Virus record (IMG/VR): IMGVR_UViG_3300009784_000011
Span: 1-64,000 of that record
Length of the DNA: 64,000 nucleotides
From: an uncultured virus (IMG/VR IMGVR_UViG_3300009784_000011)
Taxonomy: Duplodnaviria; Heunggongvirae; Uroviricota; Caudoviricetes
Direction: 5' to 3' (one strand)
Numbering within the stretch: position 1 is the stretch's first letter; each line of letters opens with the position of its first letter. Shown one piece after another: positions 22,370-25,482 of this stretch. The notes under the pieces are model-generated. The model was not told where the DNA came from, ran no database searches, and saw only the letters and a list, made by a program, of their open reading frames with translations. The translations under genes were made by a program, and so were the position numbers.

Positions 22370-23023
22370 ATGGTGATGGGCTTCATCGAGCAGCAGGCGA
22401 GCGCCTGGACGCAGATTGTGGACATGATGATCGAGCAGCCCACCAATGTGCTCATCAACGGGTCGATGAACGGCCCCGCAGCCAACATGGCCGGGAGCGC
22501 CAACGTGCGTCACGAGCTGCCGTTTTTGCTGCGCGAGTACAAGATCACCTCGATGCTCGACGTGCCATGCGGGGACCTGTCCTGGATTCGGCACACCGAC
22601 CTGCGCAGCCTCTATGTGTATATCGGCGTCGATGTCGACCGCCGGCTCATTGACGAGGCGCGCCGAGCGTGCCCAATGGGCGGGTTCATCTGCGCCAATA
22701 TCCTCACCCGCGAGAAGCTGCCTGTGGTCGATCTGATCCTGTGCCGGGACTTCCTCATGTGCCTGCCTGACGAGCACCTGCAGTCGGTGATCGAGAAGTT
22801 CAAATGCTCGGCGGCAGCGTACCTGTTGGCGAGTAACTACCCGGGCTCGTCGAACACCTTCGACTACCATCCCGAGCAGTTCCCTATCCTCGGTTACCTG
22901 GAGAGGCCGTACGATCTCACTGCGCCACCGTTCAACCTGGAGCAGATCGACGGCATCATCGAGAACCAAGCATCGGCAGGATTGGTGAGCAAACCGCATG
23001 AGCTGGCACTATTCAAAATCTGA
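22370..23023 (+). CDS. class I SAM-dependent methyltransferase (paralog of 4625-5362)
   Basis: SMLDVPCGDLSWI, YIGVDVD, VDLILCRDFL, YLERPYDLTAPPFNL. Confidence 0.8.
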   Translation: MVMGFIEQQASAWTQIVDMMIEQPTNVLINGSMNGPAANMAGSANVRHELPFLLREYKITSMLDVPCGDLSWIRHTDLRSLYVYIGVDVDRRLIDEARRACPMGGFICANILTREKLPVVDLILCRDFLMCLPDEHLQSVIEKFKCSAAAYLLASNYPGSSNTFDYHPEQFPILGYLERPYDLTAPPFNLEQIDGIIENQASAGLVSKPHELALFKI

Positions 23024-23035
23024 TGCAGAAATCTG

Positions 23036-23512
23036 ATGCAGCCTGAGTGGGCTGCCCGATTCTGGGCGAGGGTCGACAAGAACGGGCCCATCTCAGAGCT
23101 AGGCACTCCCTGTTGGATCTGGACAGGACCACAGGCCGGAAAGGGATACGGATATCCCTGCTTCAATGGCAAGCATGAGTACGCCCACCGGCTTGCCTGG
23201 GAACTGGCCTACGGCCCGATCGGCAATGGGCTCACTATCGACCATCGCTGTCACGTTCCGCTCTGTGTCAACGCCGAGCATCTACGCTGCGTGACGCAGA
23301 AGCAGAACATCGAAAACCAGCGAAACGGGATAAGACAGAGTGCCAACGGAGTTCGTGGAGTCACCCGAGGGAGATGGGGCGTCGGCTTCACCGCCCAGCT
23401 CAAGCATGAGGGAAAGTGCATCTACCTCGGTACATACGCCACGCTCGAGGAAGCCGAGCAGGCGGCGGTCAACGGCCGCGCAAGGCTATTCACCCATTCA
23501 GACGGACGTTAG
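23036..23512 (+). CDS. HNH endonuclease with AP2-like C-terminal domain
   Basis: RFWARVDK...CWIWTG...AHRLAWEL...IDHRCHVPLCVNAEHL...N; GVRGV...YLGTYATLEEA. Confidence 0.9.
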   Translation: MQPEWAARFWARVDKNGPISELGTPCWIWTGPQAGKGYGYPCFNGKHEYAHRLAWELAYGPIGNGLTIDHRCHVPLCVNAEHLRCVTQKQNIENQRNGIRQSANGVRGVTRGRWGVGFTAQLKHEGKCIYLGTYATLEEAEQAAVNGRARLFTHSDGR

Positions 23513-23513
23513 C

Positions 23514-23542
23514 TTGACAGGATCGCGGCCGGCTTTTAGCGT
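23514..23542 (+). promoter_or_regulatory. SigA-type promoter
   Basis: TTGACA 23514-23519, 17-bp spacer, TAGCGT 23537-23542; predicted start site at or near G23550. Confidence 0.8.
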
Positions 23543-23549
23543 GAATCGC

Positions 23550-23915
23550 GTGTAGGTAACCAATTCCGCAGGACCAGTCCCGGGCAAGCTCTATATCGCT
23601 GTCCGGGCTGATTTGTCTCCGGGGCTCGCGATGGCCCAAGCAGTCCACGCCGGTATCGACTTCAGCCTGAGATTCCCCGGGCTAGTTGAGGCATGGCATC
23701 GCGATTCCAACAATGTGGTGATCGTCGGCGCGCCCAACGAGGCGGGGCTGCTGATGCTCGACAGCCTCGCCTATTCGCTCGGCATGAAACACCAGCTCGT
23801 CACCGAGCCCGACATCGGCGACGCCGCCACCGCCATCGTCCTGGAGCCCGGCTCCCTGGCCAAGCGCATGTGCGCGGAGTTCCCGCTGGCGTTACGGGAG
23901 GACGCGGTGGCCTAA
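23550..23915 (+). CDS. Pth2-family peptidyl-tRNA hydrolase with in-frame TAG at codon 2
   Basis: GTG-TAG-GTA ACC... continues in frame as VTNSAGPVPGKLYIAVRADLSPGLAMAQAVHAG...EPDIGDAATAIVLEP; the conserved KxYIxVRxDL strand lies upstream of the first alternative start (TTG 23613). Confidence 0.8.
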
Positions 23916-23920
23916 GACCC

Positions 23921-23973
23921 GGCGGCGGGGCGCTTGCGCCCGTAAGGAGGTTCGAAGCCTTCCGCCGCCACCA
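23921..23973 (+). ncRNA. 53-nt tRNA-like RNA lacking D and anticodon arms
   Basis: GGCGGCG/CGCCGCC acceptor stem, GGGCG-CTTG-CGCCC hairpin, GGAGG-TTCGAAG-CCTTC T-arm, discriminator A and CCA. Confidence 0.7.
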
Positions 23974-24012
23974 GCCGCGAGTCATGGCGACAGATGAGGC
24001 CCTAACCCTCTA

Positions 24013-24690
24013 TCAGCCCGGTCCGATCCCGGGGCGCGGCGCTTGACCGCCCGGTTTCGGGCGCCGGTGAAACCCCGAATGCTGTGCGTAGAGGTGCTCG
24101 GGATTCACGCAACCCTCATTGCGGCAGCTGCGCAGGATGACCGTGCGCGCCGGGATGGGCCCGTAGTGCAGCTCCCAGCAGTAGCGGTGCGCCAGCATGG
24201 TCTTGCCATTGACGCCGATGGTGGGCCGGCCGCGCCAGCCCCAGCAGTTGTTCTCCGGGCTCATCTGCACGCGGTCCCAGAACCGTTCCTCGGGCGTGCG
24301 CGTGATGAAGACCTCGCCGGGATCGCCGGTCTTGAGCCACGTCATGTAGTGGCTCACGCACCAGCCCCGGCAGTGCGCCGAGCGGGTGCAGCCGTCGACG
24401 ATGCACTTGGCCCACTGGGGACGCTTGAGCTCGACATTGGCGAACTTCGCGCCGATCGAGCGCCAGTAGGACCGACGTGCCGCGGTGCTGCCGGCCTTCC
24501 AGACACGCAGGTCGGGCTCCATTGTGACCTCCACCAGCCCGCGGTCCGAGAGTGCCTTGACGGCCCGGTACGCCTGTGCGCGGGTGATGGCCAGCGCGGT
24601 GGCGATGCGACCGGTGGTCAGGTATCGGCGGGTATCGCGCTCAAGAAGCGCCAGGATGCGGCGCTGCACGGACCCGATGGAGCGGCTCAC
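24013..24690 (-). CDS. wHTH + zinc finger + degenerate HNH protein
   Basis: N-terminal HTH (LTTGRIATALAITRAQAYRAVKALSDRGLV), CIVDGC...GWCVSHY, RFWDRV...AHRYCWEL...ILRSC...CVNPEHL; GTG 6 nt after TACGGT. Confidence 0.75.
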   Translation of the reverse strand: MSRSIGSVQRRILALLERDTRRYLTTGRIATALAITRAQAYRAVKALSDRGLVEVTMEPDLRVWKAGSTAARRSYWRSIGAKFANVELKRPQWAKCIVDGCTRSAHCRGWCVSHYMTWLKTGDPGEVFITRTPEERFWDRVQMSPENNCWGWRGRPTIGVNGKTMLAHRYCWELHYGPIPARTVILRSCRNEGCVNPEHLYAQHSGFHRRPKPGGQAPRPGIGPG

Positions 24691-24822
24691 AAAAAAACCG
24701 TATAGAAGTGCACGGCTTTATGGTATTCGCCCGGTCGGTCACTGCGGTGTTTCGCCGCGACGGCGCCTTACATCGCTGTAATTCTGGGAGCCGGGCCACC
24801 CTCTATTCCAAGGAGTAGACGA

Positions 24823-25482
24823 ATGACCAGCCTGTATCCCGACGCGGGGACGCTACCGCCTACCGGACAGGGCATCGTCTCTGAAGCACAAGAGATCGTT
24901 GCCCCGTTTCCTAAGGTCACCGGCGGTGTGCTGTGGGCGCCCCTGGGCAGTCCCATTCCCACCGACTCGGTGACCCCGCTGTCTTCCGATTACGTGAGCC
25001 TGGGCCGCGTGTCCGACGTCGGTGTGATCCGAAACGAGGACCGTCCGTCCACCGACCAGCACGACTGGGGTGGCGACCTGATCGCGATCCTGCAGCAGTC
25101 CTACAGCATGACGATCAAGTTCTCCCTGTTGCAGCTGATGAACGCCGACGTGCAGGGTGCGGCGCACGGCCACAATAACGTCACTGTGACAAATGCGACC
25201 GCCACCAGCGGTACCCAGATCGCCGTGAAGTACAACAGCCAGCTGCTCGACTACGGCCAGTGGGTCATCGACGCGTACTTCATCAACATGACCATGCGGC
25301 TGTTCATCCCGTATGGGCGCCTGACCGTCATCGGTCCGATGACCTGGGTGCACAAGGCGCTGGCGATGGCCGAGCTGACGCTGCGACCGTTCCCTGACCT
25401 CAACAACAACATGGCCTATGAGTATTGGGATGACGGTGTGTTGGCCACTGCCGCAGCGGGTTCCGGTACGTCGGGCACCTAA
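24823..25482 (+). CDS. major tail protein
   Basis: GGVLWAPLG..IPTD...LGRVSDVGV...DWGGD mycobacteriophage tail-tube pattern; AAGGAG RBS; synteny. Confidence 0.85.
   Translation: MTSLYPDAGTLPPTGQGIVSEAQEIVAPFPKVTGGVLWAPLGSPIPTDSVTPLSSDYVSLGRVSDVGVIRNEDRPSTDQHDWGGDLIAILQQSYSMTIKFSLLQLMNADVQGAAHGHNNVTVTNATATSGTQIAVKYNSQLLDYGQWVIDAYFINMTMRLFIPYGRLTVIGPMTWVHKALAMAELTLRPFPDLNNNMAYEYWDDGVLATAAAGSGTSGT

What the first reader, a model, noticed from the sequence alone, without database searches (positions are those of the whole stretch)
23921..23973. Anticodon-less 53-nt mini-tRNA directly after the Pth2 stop codon
Seen: 5 nt after the Pth2 TAA, the sequence can fold as a 7-bp acceptor stem (GGCGGCG/CGCCGCC), a G(CUUG)C tetraloop hairpin replacing the D and anticodon arms, a 5-bp T-stem with UUCGAAG loop, discriminator A and encoded CCA. 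Established: acceptor stem plus T-arm is what RNase P, EF-Tu and CCA-end enzymes recognise, as in the tmRNA tRNA-like domain; there is no G3-U70 alanine determinant here. Inference: a tRNA mimic acting as decoy for tRNA-targeting toxins, as a codon-independent A-site/peptidyl acceptor working with Pth2, or as an RNase P processing signal for the mRNA.
Basis: partly seen in the sequence, partly recalled or inferred. Interest (0 to 1): 0.85.

Follow-up and report, generated by a model that had tools for sequence, protein, structure and literature searches.

The report
Anticodon-less mini-tRNA beside phage Pth2
A 53-base RNA gene shaped like the top half of a tRNA, with a built-in CCA tail but no anticodon, is real and conserved in phages, always sitting between a peptidyl-tRNA hydrolase gene that starts with a stop codon and the suppressor tRNA that could read that stop.

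Summary
Window 23921-23973 folds as described: a 7-bp acceptor stem, a 5-bp hairpin with a CUUG tetraloop, a T arm, and A-CCA.

It is not chance. It is the only such element in the 127-kb phage genome, and none appeared in 200 shuffles once NCCA was required. Two phages with about 70% identical Pth2 keep it, with compensatory changes in the hairpin and a CUUG to UUCG tetraloop swap.

It is not a host tRNA fragment or attP core, not a canonical tRNA, and not a tmRNA.

The CCA abuts a second, compact tRNA-like gene (23974-24041) with a CUA "anticodon". The Pth2 gene begins GTG-TAG-GTA, with no other usable start codon.

The set promoter, start codon-TAG-Pth2, CCA-ended anticodon-less tRNA-likes and tRNA(CUA) recurs in 15 of 15 high-GC Pth2 loci examined. 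These include Mycobacterium cluster C1 phages such as Alice and Bxz1, where the elements are unannotated.

My best reading is that RNase P releases the element as a small RNA that acts as a generic tRNA 3'-end mimic alongside Pth2. That function is inferred, not shown. No RNA data were available.

The parts
23514..23542 (+). Promoter-like site: TTGACA (23514-23519), 17-nt spacer, TAGCGT (23537-23542), then 7 nt to the GTG start.
   Evidence: Read. A TTGACA(/G) hexamer, a TANNNT hexamer and a 6-7 nt gap to the start codon stand at the same place in L013, L014, L122, Alice, L130-L134, L136 and L140. The consensus scan tool does not call it, because the -10 matches TATAAT at only 3 of 6 positions. 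Function is inferred.
23550..23915 (+). Pth2-type peptidyl-tRNA hydrolase gene read as GTG(23550)-TAG(23553)-GTA..., stop TAA 23913-23915. The first canonical start after the TAG is TTG 23613, inside the conserved domain.
   Evidence: Pfam PF01981 E 2.7e-7, matching from residue 11 of the frame read from 23556. PDB profile hits to Pth2/Bit1, E 7e-9. Homologues align from before TTG 23613. Between the TAG and the first canonical start, L013 and L014 differ at 8 synonymous and 1 non-synonymous codons.
23553..23555 (+). In-frame TAG as codon 2 of Pth2.
   Evidence: A start codon followed within 1-3 codons by TAG is present in 17 of 20 distinct Pth2 loci examined.
23921..23973 (+). The finding: a 53-nt anticodon-less mini-tRNA. 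Acceptor 23921-27 / 23963-69; hairpin 23928-32 / 23937-41 with loop CUUG; linker GUAA; T arm 23946-50 / 23958-62 with loop UUCGAAG; A 23970; CCA 23971-73.
23974..24041 (+). Compact tRNA-like gene abutting the CCA. Acceptor GCCGCG(A)/(G)CGCGGC; 3-bp D-like hairpin; long arm with 7-nt loop CCCUAAC (CUA at 24002-24004); T arm CCCGG-UCCGAUC-CCGGG; discriminator G; no encoded CCA.
   Evidence: Cloverleaf MFE. A covariance model built from 9 ARAGORN- or record-called tRNA(CUA) genes of other cassettes hits it at 30.3 bits, E 1e-4, the only hit in the window. Compensatory changes in the acceptor and T stems against L014. Not called by ARAGORN. Position 33 is C, not U.
24048..24063 (+). GC-rich hairpin (CGCCCG-GUUU-CGGGCG) after the tRNA-like gene; a possible terminator without a U run.
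   Evidence: Read. A different GC hairpin (CCCCC-GGC-GGGGG) stands at the same place in L013 and L014. Not called by the terminator scan. Inferred.
24013..24690 (-). HTH + HNH endonuclease gene on the opposite strand. Its last 29 nt overlap the tRNA-like gene. With the HNH gene at 23036-23512 it brackets the cassette.
   Evidence: Pfam HNH_3 and PHROG HNH families. Absent from L013 and L014.

Best explanation
The element is a real, selected gene for a small tRNA-like RNA that keeps only the top half of a tRNA: a 12-bp acceptor/T-arm stack and A73-CCA. An inert tetraloop hairpin replaces the D and anticodon arms.

It belongs to a family of such CCA-encoding, anticodon-less elements (35-nt minihelices, about 53-nt mini-tRNAs and 60-105-nt forms). 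These fill the gap between a phage Pth2 gene and a dedicated tRNA(CUA) in a self-promoted, mobile cassette.

Proposed working, all inferred. The cassette is transcribed as one RNA. RNase P cuts at the 5' end of the mini-tRNA and at the 5' end of the abutting tRNA(CUA). The second cut leaves the mini-tRNA with a ready ACCA-3'OH, so neither RNase Z nor the CCA-adding enzyme is needed.

The free RNA then acts in trans as a generic mimic of the tRNA 3' end. It would be a decoy or sponge for proteins that recognise an acceptor helix plus CCA, for example host toxins that modify or clip tRNA 3' ends. Pth2 would repair blocked aminoacyl- or peptidyl-tRNA alongside it.

The neighbouring tRNA(CUA) most likely reads the TAG at codon 2 of Pth2, so that Pth2 is made only when the cassette's RNAs are expressed.
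For: SHOWN
1. Structure is present, beyond chance and conserved.
2. In the three close relatives all 50 of 50 pair cells are standard pairs. Two hairpin pairs changed on both sides, and the tetraloop changed from CUUG to UUCG. One relative lost one base pair cleanly. Slid registers pair at only 46-62%.
3. Elements of the same architecture stand at the same place with unrelated helix sequences in L122/L131, L136, L130, L132, L140 and cluster C1 phages. Examples are CGGGGCG...ACCA and CGGGGAG...ACCA. Minihelix folds have z -5.1 to -6.1, 0 of 200 shuffles.
4. Strict NCCA-ended 12-bp stacks number 16 in 2,713 nt of cassette intervals against 14 in 202,589 nt elsewhere in the same loci.
5. Encoded NCCA is found in 5 of 40 ordinary tRNA genes and 2 of 8 tRNA(CUA) genes in these loci. 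By my parse it is found in about 17 of 23 anticodon-less elements.
6. Elements abut with 0-1 nt between them (window 23973/23974; L122 3377/3378; L134 1952/1954 and 2018/2020).
7. The cassette sits in different genomic places: between tail genes and flanked by HNH genes here, and after a Nudix gene (with a helicase gene downstream in L013) in L013/L014.
8. Amber link: 16 of 17 loci with an N-terminal TAG have a tRNA(CUA) within about 400 nt, and 0 of 3 loci without the TAG do. Sequence just after the TAG evolves as coding. A low-GC phage has SD-ATG-TGT-TTA-TAG and no other start codon.

FROM PAPERS (passages read)
A mycobacterial MenT toxin modifies an isolated acceptor-stem RNA that carries CCA. 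Pth rescues tRNA blocked by GNAT toxins. Other toxins pyrophosphorylate or clip the CCA end (PMC10435456).

RECALLED, not from a call
Bacterial RNase P cleaves acceptor/T-arm minihelices and is helped by a 3' CCA. RNase Z avoids CCA-bearing precursors. Mycobacterial transcripts are often leaderless.
Against: No RNA data: no RNA-seq run holds this DNA, so transcription, processing and the 3' end are all unproven.

Nothing ties the element to any toxin; the decoy role is an inference from shape and context. A decoy would have to compete with a large pool of host tRNA.

Within the three close relatives the covariation is statistically weak: 73 of 500 shuffles reach the observed value with n = 3.

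One relative (L013) has lost the T-loop consensus (GUCACAC), so tRNA-like tertiary features are not strictly kept.

The low-GC cassette (L137-139) has Pth2 and tRNA(CUA) but no mini element, so the minis are not needed for the amber link.

The wider family was collected with a scan that demands pairing, so its 202 of 204 paired cells are partly by construction.

The promoter is below the threshold of the consensus scanner.

The window's CUA element has C33, is missed by ARAGORN, and folds no better than many shuffles (z -1.34).
Confidence: 0.4

Rival explanations
1. Cis-acting punctuation only. The tRNA-like elements are RNase P cutting signals or 3' stabilisers that separate the Pth2 mRNA from tRNA(CUA). 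The released small RNAs have no job of their own.
For: The first element always starts within a few to about 25 nt of the Pth2 stop, and the elements abut each other and the tRNA. The acceptor/T-arm stack plus CCA is what RNase P needs (recalled). Helix sequences are free to vary.
Against: The tRNA(CUA) would itself provide an RNase P site, and the low-GC cassette manages without any mini. Up to 4-5 tandem copies per cassette (L130, L134) and the strong enrichment of encoded CCA compared with ordinary tRNA genes in the same arrays are not needed for punctuation.
Confidence: 0.3
2. Codon-independent acceptor. The mini-tRNA is aminoacylated, enters ribosomes without a codon, takes over the nascent chain and falls off. 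Pth2 then hydrolyses the peptidyl-mini-tRNA. This would be a two-part rescue or release system.
For: Constant pairing with Pth2, a ready CCA end, A73 in all CCA-bearing copies, and an intact acceptor/T-arm stack, which is the part EF-Tu binds (recalled).
Against: No conserved identity set: acceptor stems differ completely between copies and none has G3:U70. No partner like SmpB turned up in the Pfam scan of 115 predicted proteins of this genome. No anticodon-stem mimic is present to trigger EF-Tu GTPase.
Confidence: 0.08
3. A decaying tRNA pseudogene left over from a tRNA array, carried along with Pth2 and without function.
For: Pth2 lies inside tRNA arrays in cluster C1 and in L122/L130. Full-length tRNA-Met-type genes with the same acceptor stem (GGCGGCG...CGCCGCC-ACCA) and similar T arms exist in viral contigs. 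HNH genes flank the cassette.
Against: All 17 pairs are intact in three diverged phages, with compensatory hairpin changes and a swap between two stable tetraloops. 39 non-hairpin positions differ at 1 (L014) and 5 (L013) sites, while the neighbouring Pth2 protein is only about 70% identical. CCA is retained. The same design recurs in distant cassettes.
Confidence: 0.07
4. A reduced tmRNA (tRNA-like domain only), like the one reported in mycobacteriophage DS6A, that titrates SmpB and blocks host trans-translation.
For: The precedent exists: DS6A carries little more than the tmRNA tRNA-like domain, and such a molecule is reported to inhibit tmRNA (passages read in PMC4131195 and PMC11915505). 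The layout is similar: acceptor, a short capped helix, T arm, ACCA.
Against: C3-G70 instead of G3:U70. No tmRNA call by ARAGORN or Rfam. The DS6A element (L124:28478-28560, which has G3:U70) is not hit by the model of this element. The unpaired D-loop-like stretch after the acceptor strand that the DS6A element shows, and which SmpB is said to contact (recalled), is absent: there are 0 nt between the acceptor and the hairpin.
Confidence: 0.07
5. Not an RNA gene at all: an attP-type core copied from a host tRNA, or simply a terminator hairpin between convergent genes.
For: It lies between convergent genes (Pth2 on +, HNH on -) and is GC-rich.
Against: Both acceptor strands are present. No integrase turned up nearby or in the Pfam scan of 115 predicted proteins. 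The exact 3' half matches no tRNA gene in 185,579 species genomes. No U run follows and the terminator scan does not call it. In L013 and L014 the next gene is on the same strand and the element is still there.
Confidence: 0.03

Closest known systems
TLD-only (coding-region-less) tmRNA of mycobacteriophage DS6A (Hudson et al. 2014, PMC4131195; PMC11915505; passages read)
   Same: A phage-encoded, anticodon-less tRNA-like RNA of an actinophage with an acceptor stem and T arm. It is thought to act as an inhibitor or sponge rather than as a decoder.
   Different: DS6A's element has G3:U70, an unpaired D-loop-like stretch after the acceptor strand and no encoded CCA (A-CUA). It is 83 nt and is not next to a Pth2 gene or a tRNA(CUA). 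The window element has C3-G70, no such stretch and an encoded CCA, and shares no detectable homology.
Bacterial Y RNA YrlA tRNA-like domain with Ro60 (Rfam RF02553; biology recalled)
   Same: A tRNA mimic without decoding function. This same phage encodes Ro60 with tRNA-like candidates beside it.
   Different: As recalled, YrlA has no free CCA-ended acceptor stem and is built on a Ro60-binding stem. The window element has no such stem and no Rfam match, and lies about 24 kb from the Ro60 gene.
Synthetic tRNA minihelices / microhelices (acceptor + T arm) used as substrates for RNase P, CCA-adding enzyme, EF-Tu and some synthetases (recalled)
   Same: The same 12-bp stack plus NCCA. The 35-nt forms in L122 and L130 are literally minihelices.
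   Different: Those are laboratory constructs. Here they are natural genes, in tandem arrays, under selection.
mascRNA / MALAT1-type tRNA-like 3' elements and plant-virus 3' tRNA-like structures (recalled)
   Same: A tRNA-like fold placed directly after a functional RNA. It is cut out by RNase P and carries CCA.
   Different: Those are eukaryotic or RNA-virus systems in which CCA is added after transcription. Here the system is a bacterial phage DNA cassette with CCA encoded, and there are several copies.
Stop-codon recoding and 'code-change modules' of phages (Borges et al., bioRxiv 10.1101/2021.08.26.457843; passages read)
   Same: A phage-encoded suppressor tRNA paired with phage genes that carry in-frame stops, proposed to gate expression.
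   Different: Here a single gene (Pth2) carries a single TAG, right after the start codon. TAG still ends 32 of 163 crudely called genes. The suppressor sits in the same cassette, and that preprint does not mention any peptidyl-tRNA hydrolase (0 occurrences of 'peptidyl' or 'hydrolase').

Membership tests
Canonical tRNA | Cloverleaf with a D arm, recognised by tRNA detectors | tested here: not met
   ARAGORN finds 0 genes in the window. Rfam tRNA gives no match at E<=10 in 23000-25000. RF00005 finds nothing in the 73-kb record.
Canonical tRNA | 7-nt anticodon loop presenting an anticodon | tested here: not met
   The only internal hairpin has a 4-nt CUUG loop here and UUCG in L013 and L014.
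Canonical tRNA | 7-bp acceptor stem stacked on a 5-bp T stem with a 7-nt T loop, a discriminator and CCA | tested here: met
tmRNA tRNA-like domain (TLD-only form) | G3:U70 alanine determinant | tested here: not met
   C3-G70. The DS6A element has G3:U70.
tmRNA tRNA-like domain (TLD-only form) | Homology to tmRNA ends | tested here: not met
   No tmRNA call by ARAGORN or Rfam. Model R1 does not hit the DS6A TLD.
tmRNA tRNA-like domain (TLD-only form) | Binds SmpB | not testable with these tools
   Needs a binding assay.
Y RNA (YrlA) | Ro60-binding stem formed by the 5' and 3' ends; gene next to rsr | tested here: not met
   No YrlA match at the element. The Ro60 gene lies outside the window, about 24 kb away.
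attP core / host tRNA 3' fragment | Exact identity of the 3' half to a host tRNA gene | tested here: not met
   The 22-nt 3' half gives 4 exact matches in 185,579 species genomes. ARAGORN finds no tRNA at any of them and none is from an actinobacterium. The true host may not be in that collection.
attP core / host tRNA 3' fragment | Integrase nearby; only the 3' part of the tRNA present | tested here: not met
   The neighbours are a methyltransferase, HNH, Pth2, HNH and tail genes. Both acceptor strands are present.
Intrinsic terminator | GC hairpin followed by a U run | tested here: not met
   The terminator scan finds none at 23921-24065. The element is followed by GCCGCG.
CCA-ended anticodon-less tRNA-like elements of Pth2-tRNA(CUA) cassettes (family proposed here) | Lies between the Pth2 stop and a tRNA(CUA) on the same strand, abutting its neighbour | tested here: met
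   Window 23916-23973/23974. The same holds in L013, L014, L122, L131, L130, L132, L133, L134, L136 and Alice/Bxz1.
CCA-ended anticodon-less tRNA-like elements of Pth2-tRNA(CUA) cassettes (family proposed here) | 12-bp acceptor/T stack, A73, encoded CCA, no 7-nt anticodon loop with U33 | tested here: met
CCA-ended anticodon-less tRNA-like elements of Pth2-tRNA(CUA) cassettes (family proposed here) | Exists as a discrete processed RNA | not testable with these tools
   No RNA run holds the stretch.
Amber-suppressor tRNA (the neighbouring element 23974-24041) | CUA at positions 34-36 of a 7-nt loop on a tRNA body | tested here: inconclusive
   The loop is CCCUAAC with CUA centred, and CUAAC is invariant in the three relatives. 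Model R2 scores 30.3 bits, E 1e-4. However, position 33 is C, ARAGORN makes no call, and the fold z is only -1.34. Homologues in L122, L130-L134, L136, L137 and L140 are called as tRNA(cta) by ARAGORN.
Pth2 peptidyl-tRNA hydrolase (the neighbouring gene) | PF01981 domain over its curated cut-off | tested here: met
   31.2 bits against a cut-off of 23. PDB Pth2/Bit1 hits, E 7e-9 to 1e-7. Enzymatic activity was not tested.

The most novel reading that the evidence does not exclude
The cassette is a self-contained RNA-plus-enzyme device for releasing nascent chains without a codon. The CCA-ended minihelices would be charged and act as natural 'RNA puromycins' that take the peptide from stalled or unwanted ribosomes. 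Pth2 would recycle them. The amber codon at the start of Pth2, read by the cassette's own tRNA(CUA), would tie hydrolase production to the cassette's RNA output.
Probability: 0.08. Interest if true: 0.95.

Novelty: new variant of a known kind. Interest (0 to 1): 0.8.

Why it matters
tRNA mimics are known (tmRNA, Y RNAs, viral 3' tRNA-like ends). A family of natural, gene-encoded tRNA minihelices with built-in CCA ends has not, as far as my six literature searches show, been described. The same holds for their fixed association with a phage peptidyl-tRNA hydrolase and an amber-suppressor tRNA.

The family is present but unannotated in the cluster C1 records I examined (Alice, Cane17, Bxz1, NoodleTree). 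About 200 Mycobacterium phage records carry this Pth2. These phages grow on a safe laboratory host, so the idea is directly testable.

If the RNAs are decoys for toxins that attack tRNA 3' ends, they would be a new class of RNA-based counter-defence. If they are only processing signals, they still show how phages build RNase-P-only maturation cassettes.

The start codon-TAG-Pth2 arrangement would be one of the smallest natural examples of gene expression gated by a co-encoded suppressor tRNA. It also implies that the annotated start of this gene in public phage records may be two codons too late.

Tried and rejected
- DNA similarity of 23000-24700 to 50,697 phage records: no match. A 131-nt query at E<=10 gave only 19-26-nt chance or T-arm matches.
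- A profile of all 14 Pth2 homologues was too diverse for the locus finder. I used 4- and 7-member alignments instead.
- The major tail protein as bait for related phages returned only the same phage.
- Pairwise alignment of the mini-tRNA and its neighbour to the 11 Alice tRNAs showed no convincing homology.
- MAFFT misaligned the L122 mini-tRNA. The model R1 alignment of 50 weak hits (A8) was too noisy to use.
- Fold: my coordinates for three L122 pieces were off, so those folds are meaningless. They were redone.
- A relaxed minihelix scan (1 mismatch allowed) gives dozens of chance hits and is uninformative.
- A scan for in-frame TAGs between high-GC3 stretches was swamped by antisense frames. 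I draw no conclusion from it about genome-wide recoding.
- Sequencing runs: 6 DNA holders (termite gut metagenomes) and no RNA holder listed. Read laying was not used, because contigs cannot show RNA ends.
- Earlier findings of this scan: three look-ups, nothing.
- The idea that the second element is a pyrrolysine tRNA came from recall and from ARAGORN's label 'Pyl'. As far as I recall, that label only reflects the cta anticodon. The Pfam scan of 115 of the 163 predicted proteins showed no aminoacyl-tRNA synthetase of any kind, so I dropped the idea.
- AAGGAGG inside the T stem looks like a Shine-Dalgarno site, but no start codon follows within range, so I rejected it.
Full report
WHAT IS AT THE COORDINATES

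The window is part of a high-GC tailed phage (GC 62-71%). A 100% identical stretch lies in a complete 127,488-bp record with terminal repeats (G001; window position = G001 position minus 8,676). The DNA is held by termite-gut metagenome runs. WhiB, DUF732 and Ku domains and the relatives of its Pth2 gene point to an actinobacterial host. That host assignment is an inference.

The TAA of the Pth2 gene is at 23913-23915 and is followed by GACCC. The element is then GGCGGCG / GGGCG-CUUG-CGCCC / GUAA / GGAGG-UUCGAAG-CCUUC / CGCCGCC / A / CCA (23921-23973). RNAfold gives this fold (MFE -30.7 kcal/mol, z -2.3). ARAGORN and Rfam do not recognise it.

IS IT CHANCE?

A strict search for a T arm abutting a perfect 7-bp acceptor stem finds this element alone on both strands of the 127-kb genome. 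Shuffled genomes give 0.255 such hits on average. None of 200 shuffles gives a hit once NCCA is also required.

CLOSE RELATIVES

Two metagenome contigs (L013, L014) encode Pth2 proteins 71% and 69% identical to the window's. Both carry the element at the same place.
- The acceptor stem, GUAA linker, T stem and ACCA are unchanged, apart from one G-U to G-C change.
- The hairpin reads GGACC-UUCG-GGUCC in L014 and GGAC-UUCG-GUCC in L013. That is two pairs changed on both sides, one pair lost cleanly, and one stable tetraloop swapped for another.
- All 50 pair cells are standard pairs, and slid registers pair at 46-62%.
- With three sequences the shuffle control is weak (73 of 500 shuffles reach the observed value), and I say so.
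- L013 has a non-consensus T loop (GUCACAC).
- The relatives' folds beat all 200 of their shuffles (z -4.7 and -4.1).

WHAT SURROUNDS IT

Three things were not in the finding.

First, the CCA is followed with no gap by a second tRNA-like element (23974-24041).
- It folds as a small cloverleaf with a 7-nt loop CCCUAAC.
- CUAAC is invariant in the three phages.
- L014 has a perfect 7-bp acceptor stem and a canonical T arm, reached by compensatory changes.
- A covariance model built from nine tRNA(CUA) genes of other cassettes hits it at 30.3 bits, E 1e-4. This is the only hit in the window. L013 scores 32.1 bits and L014 scores 48.4 bits.
- It remains atypical: C33, no ARAGORN call, and a fold z of -1.3.

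Second, the Pth2 frame (Pfam PF01981; PDB Pth2/Bit1 hits) is open back to a TAG at 23553.
- A GTG comes directly before that TAG.
- The homology to other Pth2 proteins starts well before the first canonical start codon after the TAG (TTG 23613).
- L013 and L014 read ATG-TAG-GTA.
- Between the TAG and the first later start codon they differ at 8 synonymous and 1 non-synonymous codons. So this stretch is translated.

Third, a TTGACA / 17-nt spacer / TAGCGT site ends 7 nt before the GTG, and it is conserved in the relatives. The consensus scanner does not call it.

In the window the whole unit sits between the tail terminator and the major tail gene, bracketed by two HNH genes. In L013 and L014 it sits after a Nudix gene, with a helicase gene downstream in L013. 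It therefore behaves as a movable cassette.

DISTANT RELATIVES

I obtained DNA for 20 distinct Pth2 loci.
- 17 have a start codon followed within one to three codons by an in-frame TAG: window, L013, L014, L122, L131, L130, L132, L133, L134, Alice, Cane17, Bxz1, NoodleTree, L136, L137(=138=139), L140 and L129.
- 16 of those 17 have a tRNA with a CUA anticodon within about 400 nt downstream.
- The exception, L129, is a 735-kb phage whose Pth2 has a second internal TAG. It is probably recoded as a whole.
- The three loci without the TAG (L123, L141, L003) have no tRNA(CUA).
- The first codon varies ATG/GTG, as a start codon would.
- The codon after TAG varies GTA/GTG in several lineages, which is a synonymous valine change.
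- A low-GC phage has a Shine-Dalgarno site, then ATG-TGT-TTA-TAG, and no later start codon.
- In Alice and its kin the annotated start is the GTG after the TAG.

I conclude, at about 60% confidence, that the cassette's tRNA(CUA) decodes this TAG. TAG is not reassigned genome-wide here: it ends 32 of 163 crudely called genes.

THE FAMILY OF ANTICODON-LESS ELEMENTS

In all 15 high-GC cassettes, tRNA-like elements that lack an anticodon loop occupy the space between the Pth2 stop and the tRNA(CUA).
- L122 and L131 have a 35-nt minihelix, a 54-nt mini-tRNA (CGGGGCG-ACCGG(UGUGAGG)CCGGU-CU-GGAGG(UUCGAGU)CCUCC-CGCCCCG-ACCA) and a second minihelix. Each ends in ACCA and each abuts the next.
- L136 has a 54-nt mini-tRNA plus longer forms.
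- L130 has three minihelices and two longer forms.
- Cluster C1 phages have three ACCA-ended elements of 58-77 nt in a row. Bxz1-type members have a fourth element that does not end in CCA. There are compensatory differences between Alice and Bxz1.
- L140 has a full cloverleaf whose "anticodon" arm ends in a UUCG tetraloop.
- UUCG or CUUG tetraloops recur in the window, L013, L014, L130, L132/L134 and L140.
- Folds of the minihelices have z -5.1 to -6.1.
- None of these elements matches any Rfam family at E<=1.

Strict NCCA-ended 12-bp stacks occur 16 times in 2,713 nt of cassette intervals and 14 times in 202,589 nt of the remaining sequence of the same loci. Two of the 16 are tRNA(CUA) genes and one may be spurious.

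Encoded NCCA is rare in ordinary tRNA genes of these loci (5 of 40) and in the tRNA(CUA) genes (2 of 8). It is the rule in the anticodon-less elements: about 17 of 23 by my reading.

The wider set was collected by a scan that requires pairing, so its 202 of 204 paired cells are partly by construction. The informative facts are the position, the enrichment and the unrelated helix sequences.

The low-GC cassette has no such element.

WHAT IT IS NOT

- Not a host tRNA fragment or attP core. The exact 3' half occurs four times in 185,579 species genomes, never as a tRNA gene by ARAGORN. The flanks read to me like coding DNA of Cyanobium and a Pirellulaceae genome. No integrase is nearby, and both acceptor strands are present.
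- Not a tmRNA remnant of the DS6A kind. That element (L124:28478-28560) has G3:U70 and is not hit by the model of this element.
- Not a Y RNA. The phage does have Ro60 with tRNA-like candidates beside it, but they lie 24 kb away.
- Not a terminator.
- Its acceptor stem and T arm resemble those of tRNA-Met-type genes found in viral contigs. It probably arose from a tRNA gene by loss of the D arm and anticodon loop. That is an inference.

HOW IT MOST LIKELY WORKS

The features that are kept are generic: a 12-bp stack, A73 and CCA. Everything else varies or is replaced by an inert hairpin. That argues against recognition by one particular synthetase. It argues for recognition by proteins that read any tRNA 3' end.

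The zero-to-one-nucleotide spacing means that an RNase P cut at the next element's 5' end would leave a finished CCA end. This matters because, as recalled, RNase Z avoids CCA-bearing precursors, and an RNA with no D arm lacks the usual D-loop/T-loop corner of a tRNA.

Several tandem copies suggest that dosage matters.

In mycobacteria, toxins are known that add nucleotides to, pyrophosphorylate or clip the CCA end. One of them (MenT1) accepts a bare acceptor stem with CCA. Pth reverses the damage done by tRNA-acetylating toxins (passages read in PMC10435456).

I therefore favour a trans-acting 3'-end mimic (decoy) working beside Pth2, at a confidence of about 0.4. The main rival is a purely cis-acting processing or stabilising role (0.3). 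A charged, codon-independent acceptor, a dead pseudogene and an SmpB sponge are less likely.

None of this can be settled without RNA and genetic experiments. No RNA data exist for this phage.

NOVELTY

Six full-text searches found no description of these elements or of the TAG-gated Pth2. A survey of mycobacterial tRNA arrays notes the Pth2-like gene in cluster C arrays but, in the passages I read, mentions no tRNA-like elements or suppression (PMC5966550). Supplements were not consulted. Subscription journals are outside the library, so prior description cannot be excluded.

Noticed in passing
L007:6062-7771 (-) and L005:1501-1693 (-), i.e. G001:6062-8504, just upstream of the window's first base: The phage encodes a Ro60 orthologue (TROVE + vWA domains). 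Two tRNA-like candidates lie beside it (Rfam tRNA 27.2 bits, YrlA 20 bits, and a second at 11.3 bits that looks like acceptor + D arm + T arm with no anticodon arm). These are probably Y RNAs.
   Followed up: partly
window:1856-2296 (-): The predicted protein matches Pfam Tad4, a Thoeris inhibitor (E 7e-23). This is an anti-defence gene in the same phage.
   Followed up: no
L015, L019, L021, L022, L024 and others (37 of the 80 loci fetched): Many viral contigs hold a 93-106-nt RNA-like sequence: GGCGGUG..., two T-arm-like hairpins...CGCCGCC-AACU. Rfam gives only a weak end-to-end tmRNA match (15.4 bits). It may be a strongly reduced tmRNA, or something else.
   Followed up: partly
L129:930-1400 (LR756501.1, a 735-kb uncultured phage): Its Pth2 homologue starts SD-ATG-TCG-TAG and has a second in-frame TAG inside the domain. 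This phage probably reads TAG as sense throughout.
   Followed up: no
L136:1120-1224; also L130:~1893-2000 and L132:~1942-2047: A 100-105-nt 'long tRNA-like' element with a proper D arm, a long central hairpin (GGUGAGCGCUCACC), a T arm and, in L136, ACCA. It has no Rfam match and its nature is unknown.
   Followed up: no
L001:2495-2503 (Alice) and the same site in Cane17, Bxz1 and NoodleTree: The public annotation starts the peptidyl-tRNA hydrolase gene at the GTG after ATG-TAG. The elements between this gene and tRNA(cta) carry no annotation in these records.
   Followed up: yes
L124:28478-28560 (Mycobacterium phage DS6A): The 'TLD-only tmRNA' reported in the literature lies between gp33 and gp34 and is not annotated in the record. 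It has G3:U70 and ends A-CUA.
   Followed up: partly
L008:12757-13737 (-), L009:16128-16619 (-), L009:4049-5254 (-): Elsewhere in the same phage are an RlaP-type RNA-repair nucleotidyltransferase, a PNKP-type phosphatase domain and a Ku homologue. The phage carries an unusual amount of RNA/DNA-end biology.
   Followed up: no
window:26465-36649 (+): A very long tape-measure-like ORF of 3,394 aa.
   Followed up: no
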